From NCBI RefSeq assembly GCF_044324785.1, contig NZ_CP172127.1: a stretch of 64,000 nucleotides of DNA, one strand, 5' to 3'. Positions 3,101-63,400 of this stretch are shown one piece after another; the stretch's first letter is position 1, and every line of letters starts with the position of its first letter. The stretch is from Escherichia coli (GTDB lineage Bacteria; Pseudomonadota; Gammaproteobacteria; Enterobacterales; Enterobacteriaceae). The position numbers and the translations under genes were made by a program. The notes beneath the pieces were generated by a model. The model ran no database searches, was not told where the DNA came from, and was given only the letters and a program-made list of their open reading frames with translations.

Positions 3101-3404
3101 TCGCCGCCTAAACGAACTGTTTGGCGATGTCGGCGACGAACCCGGTCGCCGAAACTTTGCCAACGGTACTATTACGCGTGTCACCCAAAATCCAATTGTG
3201 GTTGAGCAGATAGAAAAGCACGACAAGTCGATTGCCCTCAAAGGCGACTTGCCGCAAGCGGTGAAGCAAGCCGTTGTGCAGGCTCTGCTGAAAGAAGGTG
3301 ATATAGCCCGAACGCTACTCAAAGACCCACAAGTTATGGCAAGTTATGTTGAGTTGATTTTTGACATGATGAAGCAAGGTGCAGAACAGGCGGCGGTGAA
3401 ATAA
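168..3404 (+). CDS. hsdR: Type I restriction enzyme R subunit HsdR (1078 aa)
   Basis: Long ORF with SF2 helicase motifs (EHSAGSGKTSTIAW Walker A, IIDEAH DEAH box) and N-terminal nuclease region typical of HsdR; immediately follows hsdS. Confidence 0.9.
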   Translation: MAAHHEVHFEQYITEQLVNNGWKEGHSCHYDQQRALYPQDVMDWVKATQPDAWHKLNKLHGVNAEQVLLERLEKALSSHKAGSKTGGTINVLRKGFTIAGCGTIAMGQRKPEDARNEERIARYEHNILRVVRQLKYCPTREWEIDLVFFINGLPVATAELKTDFTQSLESAIAQYKEDRLPVDPKTKRKEPLLTFKRGAVVHFAMSDTEIAMATKLAGENTYFLPFNKGHDGSTSDLPVHINLPGEDGEYPVSYFWQEIAQKDNWLRIFYSFVYVETKEVADSNGKVERKETQIFPRYHQLAAVNKMIDDARQNGAGMQYLCEHSAGSGKTSTIAWTAHDLIRLRSTDGKAVFKSVIIVTDRTVLDSQLQDAVQQLDHQYGVIKVIDREKSSESKSKQLTEALLTGTPIIVVTIQTFPYALEAILTNQSLAQSNFAVIIDEAHTSQTGSTAKGLRAALTLNLSPQELEQMSIEDILTKVQEARAMPKNVSHFAFTATPKHSTKMLFGRPKDPNQPVSDDNLPESFHLYTQRQAIDEGFILDVLENYTHYDTAYKIGENNLDEKRVDSKQARRALARWMSLHPTTVSQKVEFIIKHFKANIAHLLEGEAKAMVVTSGRPQAVKYKLAFDKYIKKHGIEGIQALVAFSGKVPGKDLGDEDSQDPLEIDFDKEYTEYNLNPDTHGADLRHEFEKTEYRVMLVANKFQTGFNQPKLVAMYLDKKISDVEAVQTLSRLNRTYPGKDTTFVIDFVNDPQTILNAFKKYDKGAQLNEVQDVNVIYDIKDILDEQNIYNHQDLELFKQARGKSILGQSPDKKSHAHKKLLAATQRPTDVFNVKLKELVDAANHWDQQYNKAHLAGDEKAANYAESQRSDFTKQREALMRFKSDLARFVKHYSYMAQLIEFGDPELENFAAFAHLLSRRLKGVTPENIDLSALVLEKFKIKYDKEPLPEAFNQVLEPIRPNYNDPADREQAFLADIIRRLNELFGDVGDEPGRRNFANGTITRVTQNPIVVEQIEKHDKSIALKGDLPQAVKQAVVQALLKEGDIARTLLKDPQVMASYVELIFDMMKQGAEQAAVK

Positions 3405-3958
3405 TGAATACTGCGTTTCGGGTTTTACTTACGTTCAATGCAACATCACTACTAGTGATTATCTTTGCGGTACAAAAAGGGTACTCACTCGGATATTTCT
3501 TTGGTGGTTTCGCTTGCTTCGATTGGATAGCAGCACTTCCGAACGCAGTATCATATTTACTCTATTTTCTTATCCCTGTTTTATCGACTGGATTGAGTAT
3601 TTGGCTGAGTAAGTATTTGGGTAAAGACGATTTTAAGGCGGGTGAAGTAGCGAGTATTGAGCATGCCAATAACAGCTTCCTACCAAGTTATTTGGGTTAC
3701 TTTTTCGTGGCGTTGAGCATTGGTAACTGGGAGACATTGTGGTTTGTTTATGGCGTTTTGTTTGTTTTTACTCTCTTATCGCAAGCACTCTACTTTAACC
3801 CATTGTTTTTACTGTTTGGTTATGAGTTTTATAACATTACAACCAAAAACGGAACGGCCATTTTCCTTATTAGCCGAGAGCGCTACAAGAAGCCAGATGA
3901 CATCGAAATATCATTGGCTTATCGAATCAATAATTACACATTTATCGAGCGAGGATAA
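3404..3958 (+). CDS. Multi-pass membrane protein (184 aa), first gene of candidate two-gene defence module (KwaA-like architecture, unverified)
   Basis: ATG overlaps the hsdR stop; 4-5 hydrophobic helices (LLVIIFAVQ, FACFDWIAALPNAVSYLLYFLIPVLSTGLSIWL, YFFVALSIGNWETLWFVYGVLFVFTLL, LFLLFGYEF); visibly AT-richer than hsdR. Confidence 0.6.
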   Translation: MNTAFRVLLTFNATSLLVIIFAVQKGYSLGYFFGGFACFDWIAALPNAVSYLLYFLIPVLSTGLSIWLSKYLGKDDFKAGEVASIEHANNSFLPSYLGYFFVALSIGNWETLWFVYGVLFVFTLLSQALYFNPLFLLFGYEFYNITTKNGTAIFLISRERYKKPDDIEISLAYRINNYTFIERG

Positions 3959-4800
3959 TGATGGACCATGTACTGGCACATATAAAAACTAGAGCAAAAA
4001 AACGCATTTTCAAATTGGTTTCTGATCAATCTCTTTTTGATACCGTCACAATCGACTTAAATGCCTGTATTCCATACAATCCAGACCATAACCTTGACGA
4101 AGACTCATGGTTTAAAATTGAAGACTTTAGTCAAAAAGAGTTTTGTATTGAACTGCTAAAAAAAGACTATGATTCAAAAGACTACGATGACTTAACCAAA
4201 GATAACTTCGCCAAGATCGCCTACTTATTTGCAATTCAAGGTAATGATTTTTACTTTCAAAAAATCACTCCAAGCCTATTCGTAAAACGCAAAACGCTTG
4301 TTTTTGGTGAAGCCGCAGAAATTGAGAAGAGCCAAACACGTTTAGTAATAAACGCCTTACCTGATGCAGTGTACTTCAAAGTGGCCGATACCTTGATATT
4401 CAAAAATCTGGCAACGATCTCGAGCATTTTTAAAGGTATCGATGAGTTGTACAAGGAAGCAACAAAAGAAGAAGTTGAGCAGTTTTTAGATGCACAGTTT
4501 ATAGAGTTGGGTAATGACTACAACGTAGATAGCGTCTCAAAACCTAATAGAAAACGTATTGGCCTTGCTATGGCAACACTTGATGCGATGTCTGCTGACG
4601 ATAAAGCTAACATGCTTGATTATATCGACGGTTACTGCGGTGAACAGAAGCTGAAATTCGATAAAGAAAATCAGAAGTTTGAAATATCTAATGACGATGA
4701 GTTGAAGTTACTGCTTTATGGCATTGAACAACGCTTCTATACGACCCCGTTTGGCAAAGAAAAAAGGCTCGCTAACTCTGTAACCGCTATGGATAAATAA
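3958..4800 (+). CDS. Soluble protein of unknown function (280 aa), second gene of candidate defence module (KwaB/DUF4868-like by architecture only)
   Basis: Start overlaps the upstream stop (TAATGATG); acidic, K/D/E-rich, no hydrophobic segments, no motif I recognise; AT-rich. Confidence 0.55.
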   Translation: MMDHVLAHIKTRAKKRIFKLVSDQSLFDTVTIDLNACIPYNPDHNLDEDSWFKIEDFSQKEFCIELLKKDYDSKDYDDLTKDNFAKIAYLFAIQGNDFYFQKITPSLFVKRKTLVFGEAAEIEKSQTRLVINALPDAVYFKVADTLIFKNLATISSIFKGIDELYKEATKEEVEQFLDAQFIELGNDYNVDSVSKPNRKRIGLAMATLDAMSADDKANMLDYIDGYCGEQKLKFDKENQKFEISNDDELKLLLYGIEQRFYTTPFGKEKRLANSVTAMDK

Positions 4801-4820: not shown

Positions 4821-5870
4821 ATGAAGGTTGATTCAATGGCCGATAACATCCCACAAGCTCCTCAAGGTGAGTTTGTTCTTTTCACCAGTGCTGATGGTCA
4901 AACCCGCGTTGAGTGTCGTTTTGAGTCTGACACCTTGTGGCTTTCTCAGGCTGCAATGGCAGAGCTTTATCAAGTTAGCTCTCAAGCAATCACCCAACAC
5001 GTAAAAGCTGTCTATTCTGAAGAAGAGCTTGAGCAAATTTCAACTTGTAAGGATTACTTACAAGTTCAACTGGAAGGTGGCAGAGAAGTAAAGCGAAGCA
5101 TTCGTCACTACAGTCTTCCGGTTATTCTTGCAGTAGGATACCGAGTTCGCTCAACACGTGGCACCCAGTTCCGCCAATGGGCAACCAGAATGTTGCAAGA
5201 ATACCTAATCAAAGGATTCGTCATGGATGACGAGCGCCTGAAAAATCCGCCCATTGGCCATTCTGCTGTGCCAGATTACTTTGATGAAATGCTGGAACGC
5301 ATTCGTGATATCCGAGCTAGTGAGCGTCGCGTTTATCTGCGAGTCAAAGAAATCTTTACCATGGCTGCTGATTACGAGCCATCTAACCAAGAGACCAACC
5401 GCTTCTTCCAAACCATTCAGAATAAGCTGCATTATGCTTGTACGCATATGACGGCTGCTGAGCTTATCGCCAGCCGTGTGGATGCCAGTAAGCCGGATAT
5501 GGGCTTAACCAGCTATAAAGGCGATGAAGTGCGCAAGACAGACGTTACTGTTGCCAAGAACTATTTGCGTGAAGACGAAATCAAAGAGCTTAATCGCATC
5601 GTCAATATGTGGCTCGACTTTGCTGAAGACCAAGCACTGCGTCGCAAGCAGGTATTTTTACAGGACTGGGCCGATAAGCTTGACCAGTTCTTGAGTTTTA
5701 ACGATAGAGATGTATTAAACGGTGCAGGAAAAATCTCCAAGAAAGACGCTGATGACAAAGCGAAATTGGAGTTTGACCGCTTTGCCCAGCAGCGCCGTCG
5801 TTTAAAAGAAGCCGAAGGCGCACGGGCCAATATCGCAGCCCTCAAGGCCATACTAAAAAAAGATAAATAG
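4821..5870 (+). CDS. RhuM-family protein (alternative start at ATG 4836)
   Basis: N-terminal segment LFTSADGQTRVECRFESDTLWLSQAAMAELYQVSSQAITQHVKAVY matches the RhuM family N-terminal region as I recall it; 20 bp downstream of the preceding gene, same strand. Confidence 0.55.
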   Translation: MKVDSMADNIPQAPQGEFVLFTSADGQTRVECRFESDTLWLSQAAMAELYQVSSQAITQHVKAVYSEEELEQISTCKDYLQVQLEGGREVKRSIRHYSLPVILAVGYRVRSTRGTQFRQWATRMLQEYLIKGFVMDDERLKNPPIGHSAVPDYFDEMLERIRDIRASERRVYLRVKEIFTMAADYEPSNQETNRFFQTIQNKLHYACTHMTAAELIASRVDASKPDMGLTSYKGDEVRKTDVTVAKNYLREDEIKELNRIVNMWLDFAEDQALRRKQVFLQDWADKLDQFLSFNDRDVLNGAGKISKKDADDKAKLEFDRFAQQRRRLKEAEGARANIAALKAILKKDK

Positions 5871-5927
5871 CCGATATAGTACAGCCCTGATCTCTAATGA
5901 GTTGAGGGCTGTGTTGTAAGATCATAA

Positions 5928-6604
5928 CTATAAAGGATTATCCATCTTAAAATCGTCGATATCGCCTGTCATTTTGAATAGATTGGTGTCATTCCAACGG
6001 CACAGTTGTCTAACCCGCATTAGATTTGAGTTGGCTCTGCGGATTATTGAGAAAGCATCTTCAACAGCAGTAATCACCGATTTTTCCCAATCTTGTGCTC
6101 GGGTAAAGGTGCTTTGTGAATAGCGATAATTGCCCTCACGGGGGAGGTAATGGCTGATCACCTGGTATTTGTCAGAATTCTTTTTAGGTTTAAACTCGTT
6201 GTAAACCCAGAAAATTTCGAGTTTTTTGTTTCTTTGCCTTACACGACAACCAAAATGACCTGGGTAGCCTTCAGAGTTTTTACCTCTATGTGCAACGTTG
6301 TTCAGCCAGAACAAGTCTGCAATTTTTTGTGCTATGTAGAAGTAGCGGAGCTGTTCTATTTCGGTTGATTTATGGGTGTAGTGTAGATATTGCTCTGATA
6401 TGGTTAAGGAAAAAGCATTGCGTCGTCTTGATTAACATTTGTGCTATTGACAATAAAGGTTTCCCAAATATTAATTTGTGTTTCTAGTCCTTTAAATGAT
6501 TTTGAGAAGGCTTCTATGTACTCAGATTGCGGTTGATTTCCCCCATTTAGTGCTGCACCAAATGTAGCTATCTGTTGTTCTAAAAATGAATGATTTTTGG
6601 TCAT
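5928..6604 (-). pseudogene. Hypothetical AT-rich gene, apparently frameshifted (66-aa frame 6404-6604 continuing in +1 frame to 5928)
   Basis: Good SD (AGAGGA) before ATG at 6604; second frame opens just before the first frame's stop and runs ~155 codons with no ATG (ORF track used TTG at 6314); abutted by the IS3-family TIR. Confidence 0.35.
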
Positions 6605-6630
6605 TACATAATCCTCTGTGTGGTTGATAC

Positions 6631-6664
6631 TGCGTATTTTCATGAAAGGAGATCACTCAATAAC
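6631..6664. repeat. IS3-family left terminal inverted repeat (34 bp)
   Basis: Exact reverse-complement match to 8296-8329; begins TG. Confidence 0.8.
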
Positions 6665-6712
6665 CCCCCTGTGTCAGCATAGTTGTCGCCTCAATTTTTT
6701 AAGGAGATAACA

Positions 6713-7225
6713 ATGCCAGGACAACCAATACCAAATGAGCTCAAAGAAAAAGGACTGATATGGCTTTTGCCACCATACTGTTGGTCACACCGTCAGATAG
6801 CCCGGAAGCTGAAGATCAGTGCCTCAGTTGTATCAAAATGGAGATGTGAGTTAGTGGAGCAAGGACTTTTACCTGAAAATGAAAAGATTACCTCCGTTGA
6901 TGTTGAAGACTGGACACCGGAGCGTCGATTCTCAGTTGTTCTTGAGACGGCTACGCTGTCAGAAATGGAACTTGCTGATTATTGCCGACGCATGGGATTG
7001 TTTGTTGAACAGGTTAAAGAATGGCGGGCTATCTCAATTCAGGCGCATGAAAAGAAATTGACGGAAAATATCCGAACAGACAGGGCATTGCGTGACGCAA
7101 AAAATAAGTTACGAGAACTGGAGAAAGAGCTTAAGCGCAAAGATAAAGCTCTGGCGGAAGCAGCTGCCCTGCTTATATTAAGGGAAAAGTTCAATGCCCT
7201 CTGGGACAACAGCGAGGAAGACTGA
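6713..7225 (+). CDS. IS3-family transposase OrfA (HTH plus leucine-zipper region)
   Basis: SD AAGGAG 6 nt before ATG 6713; C-terminal heptad-like LRELEKELKRKDKALAEAAALLILREKF. Confidence 0.6.
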   Translation: MPGQPIPNELKEKGLIWLLPPYCWSHRQIARKLKISASVVSKWRCELVEQGLLPENEKITSVDVEDWTPERRFSVVLETATLSEMELADYCRRMGLFVEQVKEWRAISIQAHEKKLTENIRTDRALRDAKNKLRELEKELKRKDKALAEAAALLILREKFNALWDNSEED

Positions 7226-8252
7226 CCCCTCTCCTGGAGCGGCATAAAATTATTTCTCTTGTCCGTGAGGCCGTCGCCAACGGCGCCCGGAAAGGTCAGG
7301 CTTGTAGGTGTATCGGTATTTCTATTCGGACACTTCAGCGCTGGACTAATGGCAACATCATCACCACGGACCGAAGATCCGATACTGTAAACAGCTCTCC
7401 CCGAAATAAGCTGTCAGAAGCGGAAAGATTGCGAATACTGGAGTTGTGCAACTCTCCAGAGTTTGCATCCTTGCCTCCAAATGTGATCGTACCAACTCTG
7501 GCAGACAGAGGTATTTATATTGCTTCTGAATCAAGTTTTTATCGTGTACTGAAATCAGCCAAGCAGTTGAAGAAACGATCCCGTGAATGCCAGTATAAAC
7601 TGGCCTGATGTACTCAGGGCCGTTGCACCGAATCAAGTCTGGAGTTGGGACATCAGCTATTTGCCGTCCTGGGTCAGAGGCCAGCATTTTTACCTCTATA
7701 TGATCGTCGATATTTACAGTCGCAAAATTATTGCTGCTGAGGTATTTGCCAGCGAATCTGGAAAACATGCAGCAGAACTACTCCAGCGTGCAGTATGGAA
7801 TGAAAAATGTTCATCCAACAATCTGGTACTCCATTCTGATAACGGTGGTCCCATGCGCAGTGACACGTTGTTGGCGAAAATGTATGCGCTTGGTGTGCTA
7901 AGTTCTTATTCCCGGCCAAGAGTCAGTAATGATAATCCTTACTCAGAATCTTTGTTCCGGACTCTCAAATATTGTCCCTGGTGGCCTGAGAACGGTTTTC
8001 GCACTATTGATGATGCCAGAGTATGGGTAAACCAGTTTTGTAAACTGGTACAACTTTGAACATAAGCACAGCGGGATCAAATACGTCACGCCAGCCGAGC
8101 GTCATCAAGGTAATGATATGAAAATACTGGCGGCCAGAAAAGCAGTATACCAGCTGGCACGCGAACAGCATCCTGAACGTTGGGGAAAGCATCTACGTAA
8201 CTGGGACTACATATCAGAAGTCTACCTGAATCCAGAAAAAGAGGCTGCATAA
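7222..8252 (+). pseudogene. IS3-family transposase OrfB (DDE integrase core), interrupted by extra frameshifts/stops
   Basis: Integrase-core sequence split over three frames (...CQYKLA stop; VWSWDISYLP...SDNGGPMRSDT...KYCPWWP; HSGIKYVTPAERH... ending 8252). Confidence 0.55.
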
Positions 8253-8295
8253 CGTAATTTTATTACAAAAGGCGACAACTACCTTGAAAAACGCC

Positions 8296-8329
8296 GTTAT
8301 TGAGTGATCTCCTTTCATGAAAATACGCA
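8296..8329. repeat. IS3-family right terminal inverted repeat (34 bp)
   Basis: Exact reverse complement of 6631-6664. Confidence 0.8.
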
Positions 8330-8866
8330 CCATGACCATACCCTCTGCAACCTGACCATCGTAGTCACGCAGCGTCAGTGAACCTCCGAACAACTGTTTT
8401 ACCCGGTACATCGCTGTTTCCGCTATCGAACGACGGTTATAATCTGTTGTCCATTTACACCGGGCATTACTTCCGGTCAGCCGCTGATTAGCCACTGCAC
8501 GGTTACGGTCTTCGTATTCACCGGGCTAGTAACCCGCACCTTTTCGGGAAGGGGTAAGCGCGCTGATTTTCTTACGCCTCAGTTCATCGTGACAGAGTCG
8601 GGGGTCGTAAGCCCCGTCTACCGCTGCAGCCATGATTTTTCTGTGAGTCTGTTGGAGAAGCCCCGGGAAGGCTTCTGAGTCCGTGACGTTGTTCAGCGAC
8701 AGGTCTGCACAGACAATTTCATGTGTGTTGCCATCAACAGACAGATGCGACGCCCCTCTTTGCCGTGCTTTTTGGCTTTCCTTTCGCCTTCCCCAAAGAC
8801 TTTTAGCCCGTTGGAATCAATCACGAGGTGTATGATTTCACCCCGGGTGGGGATTTATGTATAAGA
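8330..8866 (-). pseudogene. IS903-like (IS5-family) transposase remnant, C-terminal half only
   Basis: Minus-strand translation gives ...HLVIDSNGLKVFGEGE...THEIVCADLSLNNVTDSEAFPGLLQQTHRKI...RSIAETAMYRVKQLFGGSLTLRDYDGQVAEGM, recognisable as IS903-type transposase; in-frame stops present; cut by the IS3 TIR and lacking the N-terminal half and IS ends. Confidence 0.6.
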
Positions 8867-63183: not shown

Positions 63184-63400
63184 GACTACCTCAGTTTTGC
63201 AAGCACTGATTCTGGTTTTGGATTGTTGCTTACATCTATCCGGCATCAGGAAAACCTGTGCCCAAATAGGGAATCCACACACAATCGCCTCTACAACTGG
63301 ACGACCTCTGAGGCCAGTACAAAAATCAGGTTCCGATTGTGCAGGTGCAACCCGTCACCATTTCTCAGTACGCTGCAACTTTTGCTGAAAGAGATTAACT

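What the first reader, a model, noticed from the sequence alone, without database searches (positions are those of the whole stretch)
5928..6643. AT-rich orphan gene that appears frameshifted and is abutted by an IS terminal repeat
A 66-aa frame with a good SD (start 6604) is followed by a second frame of ~155 codons that opens before the first frame's stop and lacks any ATG. This is consistent with a single ~220-aa gene broken by a frameshift near 6404-6420. It is convergent with rhuM and could be a decayed component of the same island.
Basis: seen in the sequence. Interest (0 to 1): 0.35.

Follow-up and report, generated by a model that had tools for sequence, protein, structure and literature searches.

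The report
Frameshifted mobI relic beside an IS
This is a dead copy of mobI, a gene that lets a genomic island hitch a ride on IncC resistance plasmids; it is broken by a one-base deletion and cut off from its promoter and transfer origin by an insertion sequence, so it is an ordinary pseudogene.

Summary
On the minus strand, a 66-codon frame (ATG 6604, SD 6612-6617, stop 6406-6404) is followed by a second frame that stays open to the stop at 5930-5928. An insertion-sequence terminal repeat begins at 6631.

The gene is not an orphan. Adding one T to the T5 run at 6410-6414 gives a 225-aa protein. It matches Pfam MobI (PF19456, E 9e-30). It aligns end to end (86-92% identity) with intact 223-249-aa MobI proteins of trmE-inserted islands that IncC plasmids mobilise (MGIVchHai6 family). 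Those homologues have T6 at the site.

All 71 complete E. coli genomes with the full segment carry T5, so this is not a sequencing error.

Homology to the intact islands covers only rhuM and mobI (87-88% nt). It stops at 6630, 26 nt upstream of the ATG. The AcaCD-dependent promoter, oriT, and the int, xis, DUF927 and 85 genes are absent from the window.

Rivard et al. 2020 proved the 225-aa start codon. Constructs starting at positions I map to M63 and L98 did not complement a mobI deletion, so the fragments should be inactive.

Verdict: a decayed remnant of a known mobilisable island inside the E. coli leuX island. RefSeq annotates it as two intact genes. Low interest.

The parts
5928..6604 (-). 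mobI(M)-type pseudogene. It is 677 nt. Restoring one T gives 678 nt encoding 225 aa.
   Evidence: Pfam PF19456, E 9e-30. 86-92% identity over 99-100% of its length to intact 223-249-aa MobI proteins. Repair checked.
6404..6604 (-). Frame A: the N-terminal 65 native codons, one out-of-frame codon, then a premature TAA. RefSeq calls it a 66-aa 'hypothetical protein'.
5928..6409 (-). Frame B: codons 66-225 including the conserved MobI domain. RefSeq annotates it as mobI, 157 aa from an ATA at 6401 in one record and 128 aa from the TTG at 6314 in another.
   Evidence: tblastn HSP 6413-5931.
6410..6414 (-). T5 homopolymer (A5 on the + strand). This is the site of the 1-nt deletion; intact relatives have T6.
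   Evidence: DNA alignment, run located. All 71 E. coli genomes show 99.3% identity to a T6-repaired 142-nt probe.
6605..6630 (-). The last 26 nt of the native mobI leader, including the SD AGAGGA at 6612-6617. Everything further upstream in intact islands (AcaCD box at about -88 to -72, oriT) is missing.
6631..6664 (+). Left 34-bp terminal inverted repeat of the IS that abuts mobI.
6631..8329 (+). Degenerate IS3-like insertion sequence (HTH_Tnp_1 ORF and a broken rve ORF). There is no target-site duplication (ACT on one side, CCA on the other).
4821..5870 (+). rhuM, intact and convergent with mobI. It is the conserved partner of mobI in MGIVchHai6-type islands.
   Evidence: Pfam PF13310, E 1e-113. 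87% aa identity to the V. cholerae island RhuM. Synteny.
5881..5912 (.). Inverted repeat ACAGCCCT...AGGGCTGT between the two convergent stop codons. It may be a shared terminator (inferred).
   Evidence: Read from the sequence. The flanking stretch is conserved in L002. Not tested further.

Best explanation
The locus is a pseudogene of mobI(M). This gene encodes the oriT-recognition (relaxosome accessory) protein of MGIVchHai6-family genomic islands, which IncA/IncC conjugative plasmids mobilise.

In an intact island the plasmid activator AcaCD switches on mobI. MobI then binds the island's oriT just upstream of its own gene. It recruits the plasmid's TraI relaxase and the other transfer proteins, so the excised island is transferred.

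In this E. coli leuX island only the cargo-side arm of such an element survives: mobI, rhuM and perhaps the adjacent defence genes. Two lesions inactivate mobI.

1. A 1-nt deletion in a T6 run (now T5, 6410-6414) shifts the frame after codon 65 and ends translation at codon 66.
2. An IS-associated rearrangement at 6630/6631 removed everything beyond 26 nt upstream of the ATG. That includes the AcaCD-dependent promoter, oriT and the int-xis-86-85 backbone.

Shown here: the homology, the deletion, the breakpoint, the absence of backbone genes, and fixation of the lesion in E. coli. Taken from the literature: the role of MobI and the inactivity of N-terminally truncated forms. Inferred: this copy makes no functional protein and no longer supports mobilisation.
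For: - The repaired protein hits Pfam MobI PF19456 at 103.6 bits against a cutoff of 26.6.
- Intact homologues of 225, 223 and 249 aa cover 99-100% of the repaired protein at 86-92% identity. P0004 and P0005 read DDAMLFSLTISEQY across the junction.
- The DNA alignment shows T6 in four intact loci and T5 in the window.
- The intact loci have the published architecture: trmE or int, then xis, DUF927, HTH, an intergenic region, mobI, rhuM, then type I R/M cargo. They carry AcaCD boxes, one identical to the published MGIVchHai6 motif.
- Window homology to these loci is 4824/4836-6630 only.
- tblastn finds no int, xis, DUF927 or gene 85 anywhere in the 64-kb window.
- No AcaCD-like box occurs above chance.
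- The flanks of the IS differ, so it is not a simple insertion.
- 71 of 71 E. coli complete genomes with the full segment have T5, and 69 share the mobI-IS junction.
- Rivard et al. 2020 (PMC7449626): MobI(M) is 225 aa from ATG118, proven by mutagenesis. Constructs starting at +304 and +409 fail to complement. I map these to M63 and L98 of this protein. P84 lies within the 117 bp upstream of the ATG, and oriT lies in the upstream intergenic region.
Against: - RefSeq/PGAP annotates the two pieces as intact CDSs and never as a pseudogene.
- No expression data were examined.
- A rare spontaneous -1 slip on the U5 run would recreate the exact wild-type sequence, so trace amounts of full-length protein cannot be excluded.
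- The non-complementing truncations were tested on the MGIVchHai6 gene, not on this allele. I did not retrieve the MGIVchHai6 sequence itself. The codon mapping rests on the paper's coordinates and on an 87%-identical V. cholerae homologue.
- The relic is retained nearly unchanged in 71 genomes. That could reflect hitch-hiking with useful neighbouring genes or some residual role.
Confidence: 0.93

Rival explanations
1. Two genuinely separate genes, as RefSeq annotates them: a 66-aa protein of unknown function and a shorter, functional MobI of 128-157 aa.
For: PGAP calls both as intact CDSs. The conserved Pfam MobI domain (aa 91-203) lies entirely in the second frame. The plasmid MobI(C) is shorter, at 179 aa.
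Against: The second frame has no canonical start before the TTG at L98, which lies inside the Pfam domain. PGAP has to use an ATA in one record and the TTG in another. Every non-E. coli relative of comparable length is one continuous ORF. A single T restores it. Constructs starting at positions I map to M63 and L98 were inactive in the MGIVchHai6 gene.
Confidence: 0.03
2. Recoding: a programmed -1 ribosomal frameshift or transcriptional slippage on the T/U5 run produces full-length MobI from the split gene.
For: A -1 slip of tRNA-Phe on C UUU UUC C would give exactly the wild-type ...MLFSLTISE... sequence (read from the sequence). A 0-frame stop follows two codons later.
Against: Intact relatives encode the protein in one frame with T6, so recoding is not ancestral. 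The site is not a canonical X XXY YYZ heptamer. Five T is below the run length I recall as needed for efficient transcriptional slippage (own knowledge, not checked). There is no stable downstream RNA structure (z -0.61). The native promoter is gone.
Confidence: 0.02
3. Sequencing or assembly error in a homopolymer; the real gene is intact.
For: The lesion is a 1-nt change in a homopolymer, which is a typical error site.
Against: 71 independently assembled complete E. coli genomes all show the same T5 allele and none shows T6. They include SMS-3-5, which I recall was Sanger-sequenced (own knowledge, not checked).
Confidence: 0.01

Closest known systems
MobI(M) of MGIVchHai6 and related group A trmE/yicC/dusA islands (Carraro et al. 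2016, PMC4958241; Rivard et al. 2020, PMC7449626)
   Same: After repair it has the same length (225 aa). It is 86-92% identical to island MobI proteins from V. cholerae and metagenomes. It uses the same start codon and SD context. It has the same convergent rhuM neighbour and a type I R/M cargo arm.
   Different: It is frameshifted at codon 65/66. It has lost the AcaCD promoter P84, oriT, and the int, xis, 86 and 85 genes. It lies in the leuX island rather than at trmE, yicC or dusA.
MobI(C) of IncA/IncC conjugative plasmids (e.g. pVCR94, pMR0211)
   Same: Same Pfam family (PF19456). According to the literature it has the same role as an oriT-specificity factor working with the MOBH1 relaxase TraI.
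   Different: Only about 27% identity over aa 92-215. The plasmid protein is 179 aa, with no detectable similarity in the N-terminal part. It is encoded on a plasmid.
MobI of SXT/R391 integrative conjugative elements (Ceccarelli et al. 2008, as cited in PMC7449626)
   Same: By analogy, an auxiliary mobilisation factor encoded next to oriT.
   Different: No sequence comparison was made here. According to PMC4958241, SXT/R391 elements do not mobilise MGIVchHai6.

Membership tests
MobI protein family (Pfam PF19456) | Sequence match to the family profile above the gathering score | tested here: met
   103.6 bits against a cutoff of 26.6, E 9e-30, aa 91-203 of the repaired protein
MobI(M), group A island-encoded MobI | Collinear full-length homology to the 225-aa protein with the experimentally proven start | tested here: met
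   Met only after adding one T: 99-100% coverage at 86-92% identity, with the same ATG and SD
MobI(M), group A island-encoded MobI | Uninterrupted reading frame | tested here: not met
   T5 instead of T6 at 6410-6414, premature TAA at 6406-6404
MobI(M), group A island-encoded MobI | AcaCD-responsive promoter (P84) within about 117 bp upstream of the start | tested here: not met
   Only 26 nt of native leader remain. The box at -88 to -72 in L002 and L009 is absent. The only AcaCD-like match in the window is at chance level.
MobI(M), group A island-encoded MobI | Cognate oriT in the intergenic region upstream of mobI | tested here: not met
   No similarity to the L002 or L009 intergenic region anywhere in the window
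MobI(M), group A island-encoded MobI | Supports IncC-dependent mobilisation | not testable with these tools
   Needs a mating assay. The published truncations that I map to M63 and L98 are inactive.
MGIVchHai6-like mobilisable genomic island | Backbone int-xis-86(DUF927)-85-ig-mobI | tested here: not met
   tblastn with the L002 Int, Xis, DUF927 and 85 proteins finds nothing in the window
MGIVchHai6-like mobilisable genomic island | Integration at the 3' end of trmE or yicC, or the 5' end of dusA | tested here: not met
   In SMS-3-5 the segment lies about 15 kb downstream of a tRNA-Leu gene that I take to be leuX (it follows idnK-ahr) and a P4-type integrase
MGIVchHai6-like mobilisable genomic island | rhuM adjacent to mobI, with defence or R/M cargo beyond | tested here: met
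   rhuM is convergent with mobI, followed by a Kiwa-like pair and hsdR, with hsdS and hsdM further on in SMS-3-5

The most novel reading that the evidence does not exclude
The relic may not be inert. The 66-aa N-terminal fragment, or a restarted C-terminal fragment, might be kept because it interferes with relaxosome assembly of incoming IncA/IncC plasmids. Over-expressing MobI(M) lowers pVCR94 transfer about 40-fold (Rivard 2020). That would make it a domesticated anti-plasmid factor sitting in a defence-rich island.
Probability: 0.02. Interest if true: 0.5.

Novelty: new member of a known kind. Interest (0 to 1): 0.12.

Why it matters
The consequences are modest.

- Annotation: RefSeq lists a 'hypothetical protein' plus a 'MobI(A/C)' of 128 or 157 aa in about 70 E. 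coli genomes. These should be one frameshifted pseudogene.
- Island history: a piece of an IncC-mobilisable, trmE-type island, with its rhuM and adjacent defence genes, ended up fixed in the E. coli leuX island. This is an example of island cargo outliving its mobility functions.
- Plasmid biology: because oriT, the promoter and an intact mobI are all missing, this segment should not be mobilisable by IncC plasmids through this route.

Tried and rejected
- NCBIfam scan of the repaired protein and of the 66-aa fragment: no MobI model hit, only sub-threshold noise.
- Search of the window for an AcaCD-like box (GTGCCCMAAAAGGGCA, up to 3 mismatches): one match at 63258, no better than shuffles.
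- tblastn of the island backbone proteins against the window: nothing apart from mobI, rhuM and a distant HsdR.
- Exact 53-mer scan of species-representative genomes for the conserved mobI block, to find a progenitor island: 0 hits.
- RNA fold downstream of the T5 run, looking for a frameshift stimulator: no structure beyond shuffles.
- Rivard 2020 supplement searched for this E. coli relic: it lists only a trmE island in E. coli NCTC10962, with a 192-aa MobI; SMS-3-5 and leuX gave no hits.
- The 79-aa ORF from ATG 6643 was rejected because that ATG lies inside the IS repeat.
- I started to work out the true structure of the IS (IS3-like interior with an ISEc12-type terminus). I stopped because it does not change the verdict.

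Full report
**What is in the sequence**

All coordinates here are on the minus strand. An ATG at 6604 is preceded by AGAGGA at 6617-6612. It opens a frame of 66 codons that ends at TAA 6406-6404. A second frame is open from about 6432 to TAG 5930-5928. That frame has no canonical start before a TTG at 6314. The region is 38.5% GC, against 52% for the whole window. A perfect 34-bp inverted repeat lies at 6631-6664 and 8296-8329. It brackets an IS3-like element whose transposase frames are themselves broken. The finding's upper coordinate, 6643, is an ATG inside that repeat, so the 79-aa ORF from it is an artefact.

**What the gene is**

It is not an orphan. Joining the two frames at the T-run gives a 225-aa protein. 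That protein matches Pfam MobI (PF19456) at 103.6 bits, E 9e-30, over residues 91-203.

A search of 5.8 billion proteins found intact relatives that cover 99-100% of the joined protein:
- 225 aa (P0001, 92% identity; P0005, 86%)
- 223 aa (P0004, 87%)
- 249 aa (P0002, 91%; P0003 from Vibrio cholerae, 87%, named MobI(A/C))

P0004 and P0005 read DDAMLFSLTISEQY across the junction, which is exactly the conceptual repair. A DNA alignment with four intact loci shows GCTTTTTTCC (T6) where the window has GCTTTTTCC (T5; A5 on the + strand at 6410-6414). Adding one T gives 678 nt encoding 225 aa. tblastn with the V. cholerae protein switches frame at 6410-6413.

**Not a sequencing error**

The segment occurs in 76 of 5,426 complete E. 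coli genomes, and in 71 of them at full length. A 142-nt probe carrying the repaired T6 matched all 71 at 99.3%, which is one gap. None matched at 100%. The full repaired gene gave 99.9% in nearly all full-length carriers, and none matched at 100%.

**Context in intact relatives**

The loci that encode intact proteins share one layout: trmE (in L002) or int, then xis (HTH_17), DUF927, a small HTH gene, an intergenic region of about 460-530 bp, mobI, a convergent rhuM, then defence cargo including type I R/M. This is the int-xis-86-85-ig-mobI structure published for MGIVchHai6 and its group A relatives. IncA/IncC plasmids mobilise those islands (PMC4958241; PMC7449626). The intergenic regions of L002 and L009 contain GCTGGAACTGCCCTTTTTGGGAACTTC. 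That is the reverse complement of the published AcaCD motif upstream of gene 85. They also carry a second box (GGTGCCCAAAAAGGGCA) at about -88 to -72 from the mobI ATG.

**What survives in the window**

Nucleotide homology to L002 and L009 runs from 4836 or 4824 to 6630, at 87-88%. That span is rhuM, mobI and 26 nt of leader. It stops exactly at the IS boundary.

The two flanks of the IS differ (ACT and CCA). The DNA beyond the IS appears, from its translated sequence, to be another transposase fragment, and it shows no similarity to the island's oriT region. So the IS marks a rearrangement or deletion and is not a simple insertion.

No int, xis, DUF927 or gene 85 homologue exists anywhere in the 64-kb window. 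No AcaCD-like box occurs above chance.

In E. coli SMS-3-5 the segment lies about 15 kb from a tRNA-Leu gene, which I take to be leuX because it follows idnK-ahr, and a P4-type integrase. The segment sits among IS debris and defence genes. Sixty-nine genomes share the same mobI-IS junction, so both lesions are old and were inherited together.

**How it worked and why it no longer does**

The following comes from Rivard et al. 2020.
- AcaCD from the helper IncC plasmid activates P84, which lies within the 117 bp upstream of the mobI(M) start.
- MobI(M) is a 225-aa protein. Its ATG was proven by mutagenesis.
- It is needed for mobilisation. Deleting it lowered transfer about 2,700-fold.
- It acts on a 49-bp minimal oriT in the upstream intergenic region.
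- The plasmid's TraI, TraD, TraJ and type IV secretion system are also needed.
- Constructs beginning at +304 (ATG) or +409 (TTG) of ORF 84 did not complement.

Counting from ATG118, those two positions are codons 63 and 98. They correspond to M63 and L98 of this protein. L98 is the TTG that RefSeq uses as the mobI start in strain 219. This mapping is my inference from the paper's coordinates and from an 87%-identical V. cholerae homologue. I did not retrieve the MGIVchHai6 sequence itself.

So even if the second frame were translated, the published data predict an inactive protein. The frameshift, the lost promoter, the lost oriT and the lost excision and integration genes together make this a relic. 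I put the confidence at 0.93.

**Rivals**

1. Two real genes, as PGAP annotates them. Against this, PGAP needs an ATA start in SMS-3-5 and a TTG inside the Pfam domain in strain 219. Relatives have a single ORF. The truncation data also argue against it.
2. Recoding. A -1 slip on the U5 run would give the exact wild-type sequence. However, relatives are in-frame with T6, the site is not a canonical slippery heptamer, and no downstream structure exists (z -0.61).
3. Sequencing error. This is excluded by 71 concordant assemblies.

**Comparison with known families**

The gene is a decayed member of the island-encoded MobI(M) group. It is only about 27% identical, over aa 92-215, to the 179-aa MobI(C) of IncC plasmids. 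As a protein family member it passes the profile test. As a functional mobI or oriT module, or as an MGIVchHai6-type island, it fails the tests for reading frame, promoter, oriT, backbone and integration site.

Rivard's Table S1 lists an E. coli trmE island (NCTC10962). A search of the held supplement text for SMS-3-5 and leuX found nothing.

**Verdict**

This is an ordinary pseudogene of a known kind. Its main practical value is to correct the annotation. It is also a small example of defence cargo from a mobilisable island outliving the island's mobility functions.

Noticed in passing
window 3404-3958 (+) and 3958-4800 (+): RefSeq calls these two genes between hsdR and rhuM 'hypothetical'. 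They match PADLOC KwaA (E 9e-16) and KwaB/DUF4868 (E 7e-14), with no Pfam hit. This looks like an unannotated, divergent Kiwa-like anti-phage pair.
   Followed up: partly
window 6631-6664 and 8296-8329; L008 2502-2535: The 34-bp terminal repeat of the IS3-like element is 100% identical to the left terminus of the IS21-family element ISEc12, although the interiors are unrelated. At least part of this IS end matches in 1,853 of 5,426 E. coli genomes, and most of the sampled hits are the 34-bp repeat alone. I have no explanation for why two different IS families share one terminus.
   Followed up: partly
window 6953-6960 and 8296-8329, against L001 and L007: The IS differs between strains. SMS-3-5 and strain 219 have the left repeat but not the right one; their similarity to the window stops at 8296. 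They also carry about 44 extra bases near window 6960. In strain 219 the IS is further split by IS66 and IS110 elements.
   Followed up: partly
L001 20058-20531 (SMS-3-5) and L007 13549-13935 (strain 219), equal to window 5928-6401 and 5928-6314: RefSeq annotates the same DNA inconsistently: MobI of 157 aa from a non-canonical ATA (WP_226091811.1) in one record, and 128 aa from a TTG (WP_001342709.1) in another. Each record also has a separate 66-aa hypothetical protein. Neither record flags a pseudogene.
   Followed up: yes
window 8330-8640 (-): The DNA directly right of the IS encodes fragments that, judged from the translated sequence, look like another transposase (an ORF at 8214-8495 runs into the IS repeat). 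I did not test this with a family search. It fits the picture of mobI sitting at the edge of a pile of nested IS debris.
   Followed up: no
E. coli genomes, (H154 and four others): Five complete E. coli genomes keep only part of the segment; in the one listed (H154) it is the last 175 nt of mobI (query 504-678). This shows further decay of the relic in some lineages. One other genome has a copy at 60-80% identity, which may belong to a different, real island.
   Followed up: no
P0011 (Xenorhabdus szentirmaii, 149 aa): A relative that covers the N-terminal part and stops at about residue 142. It also has an internal 12-residue gap. It may be another independently truncated mobI.
   Followed up: no
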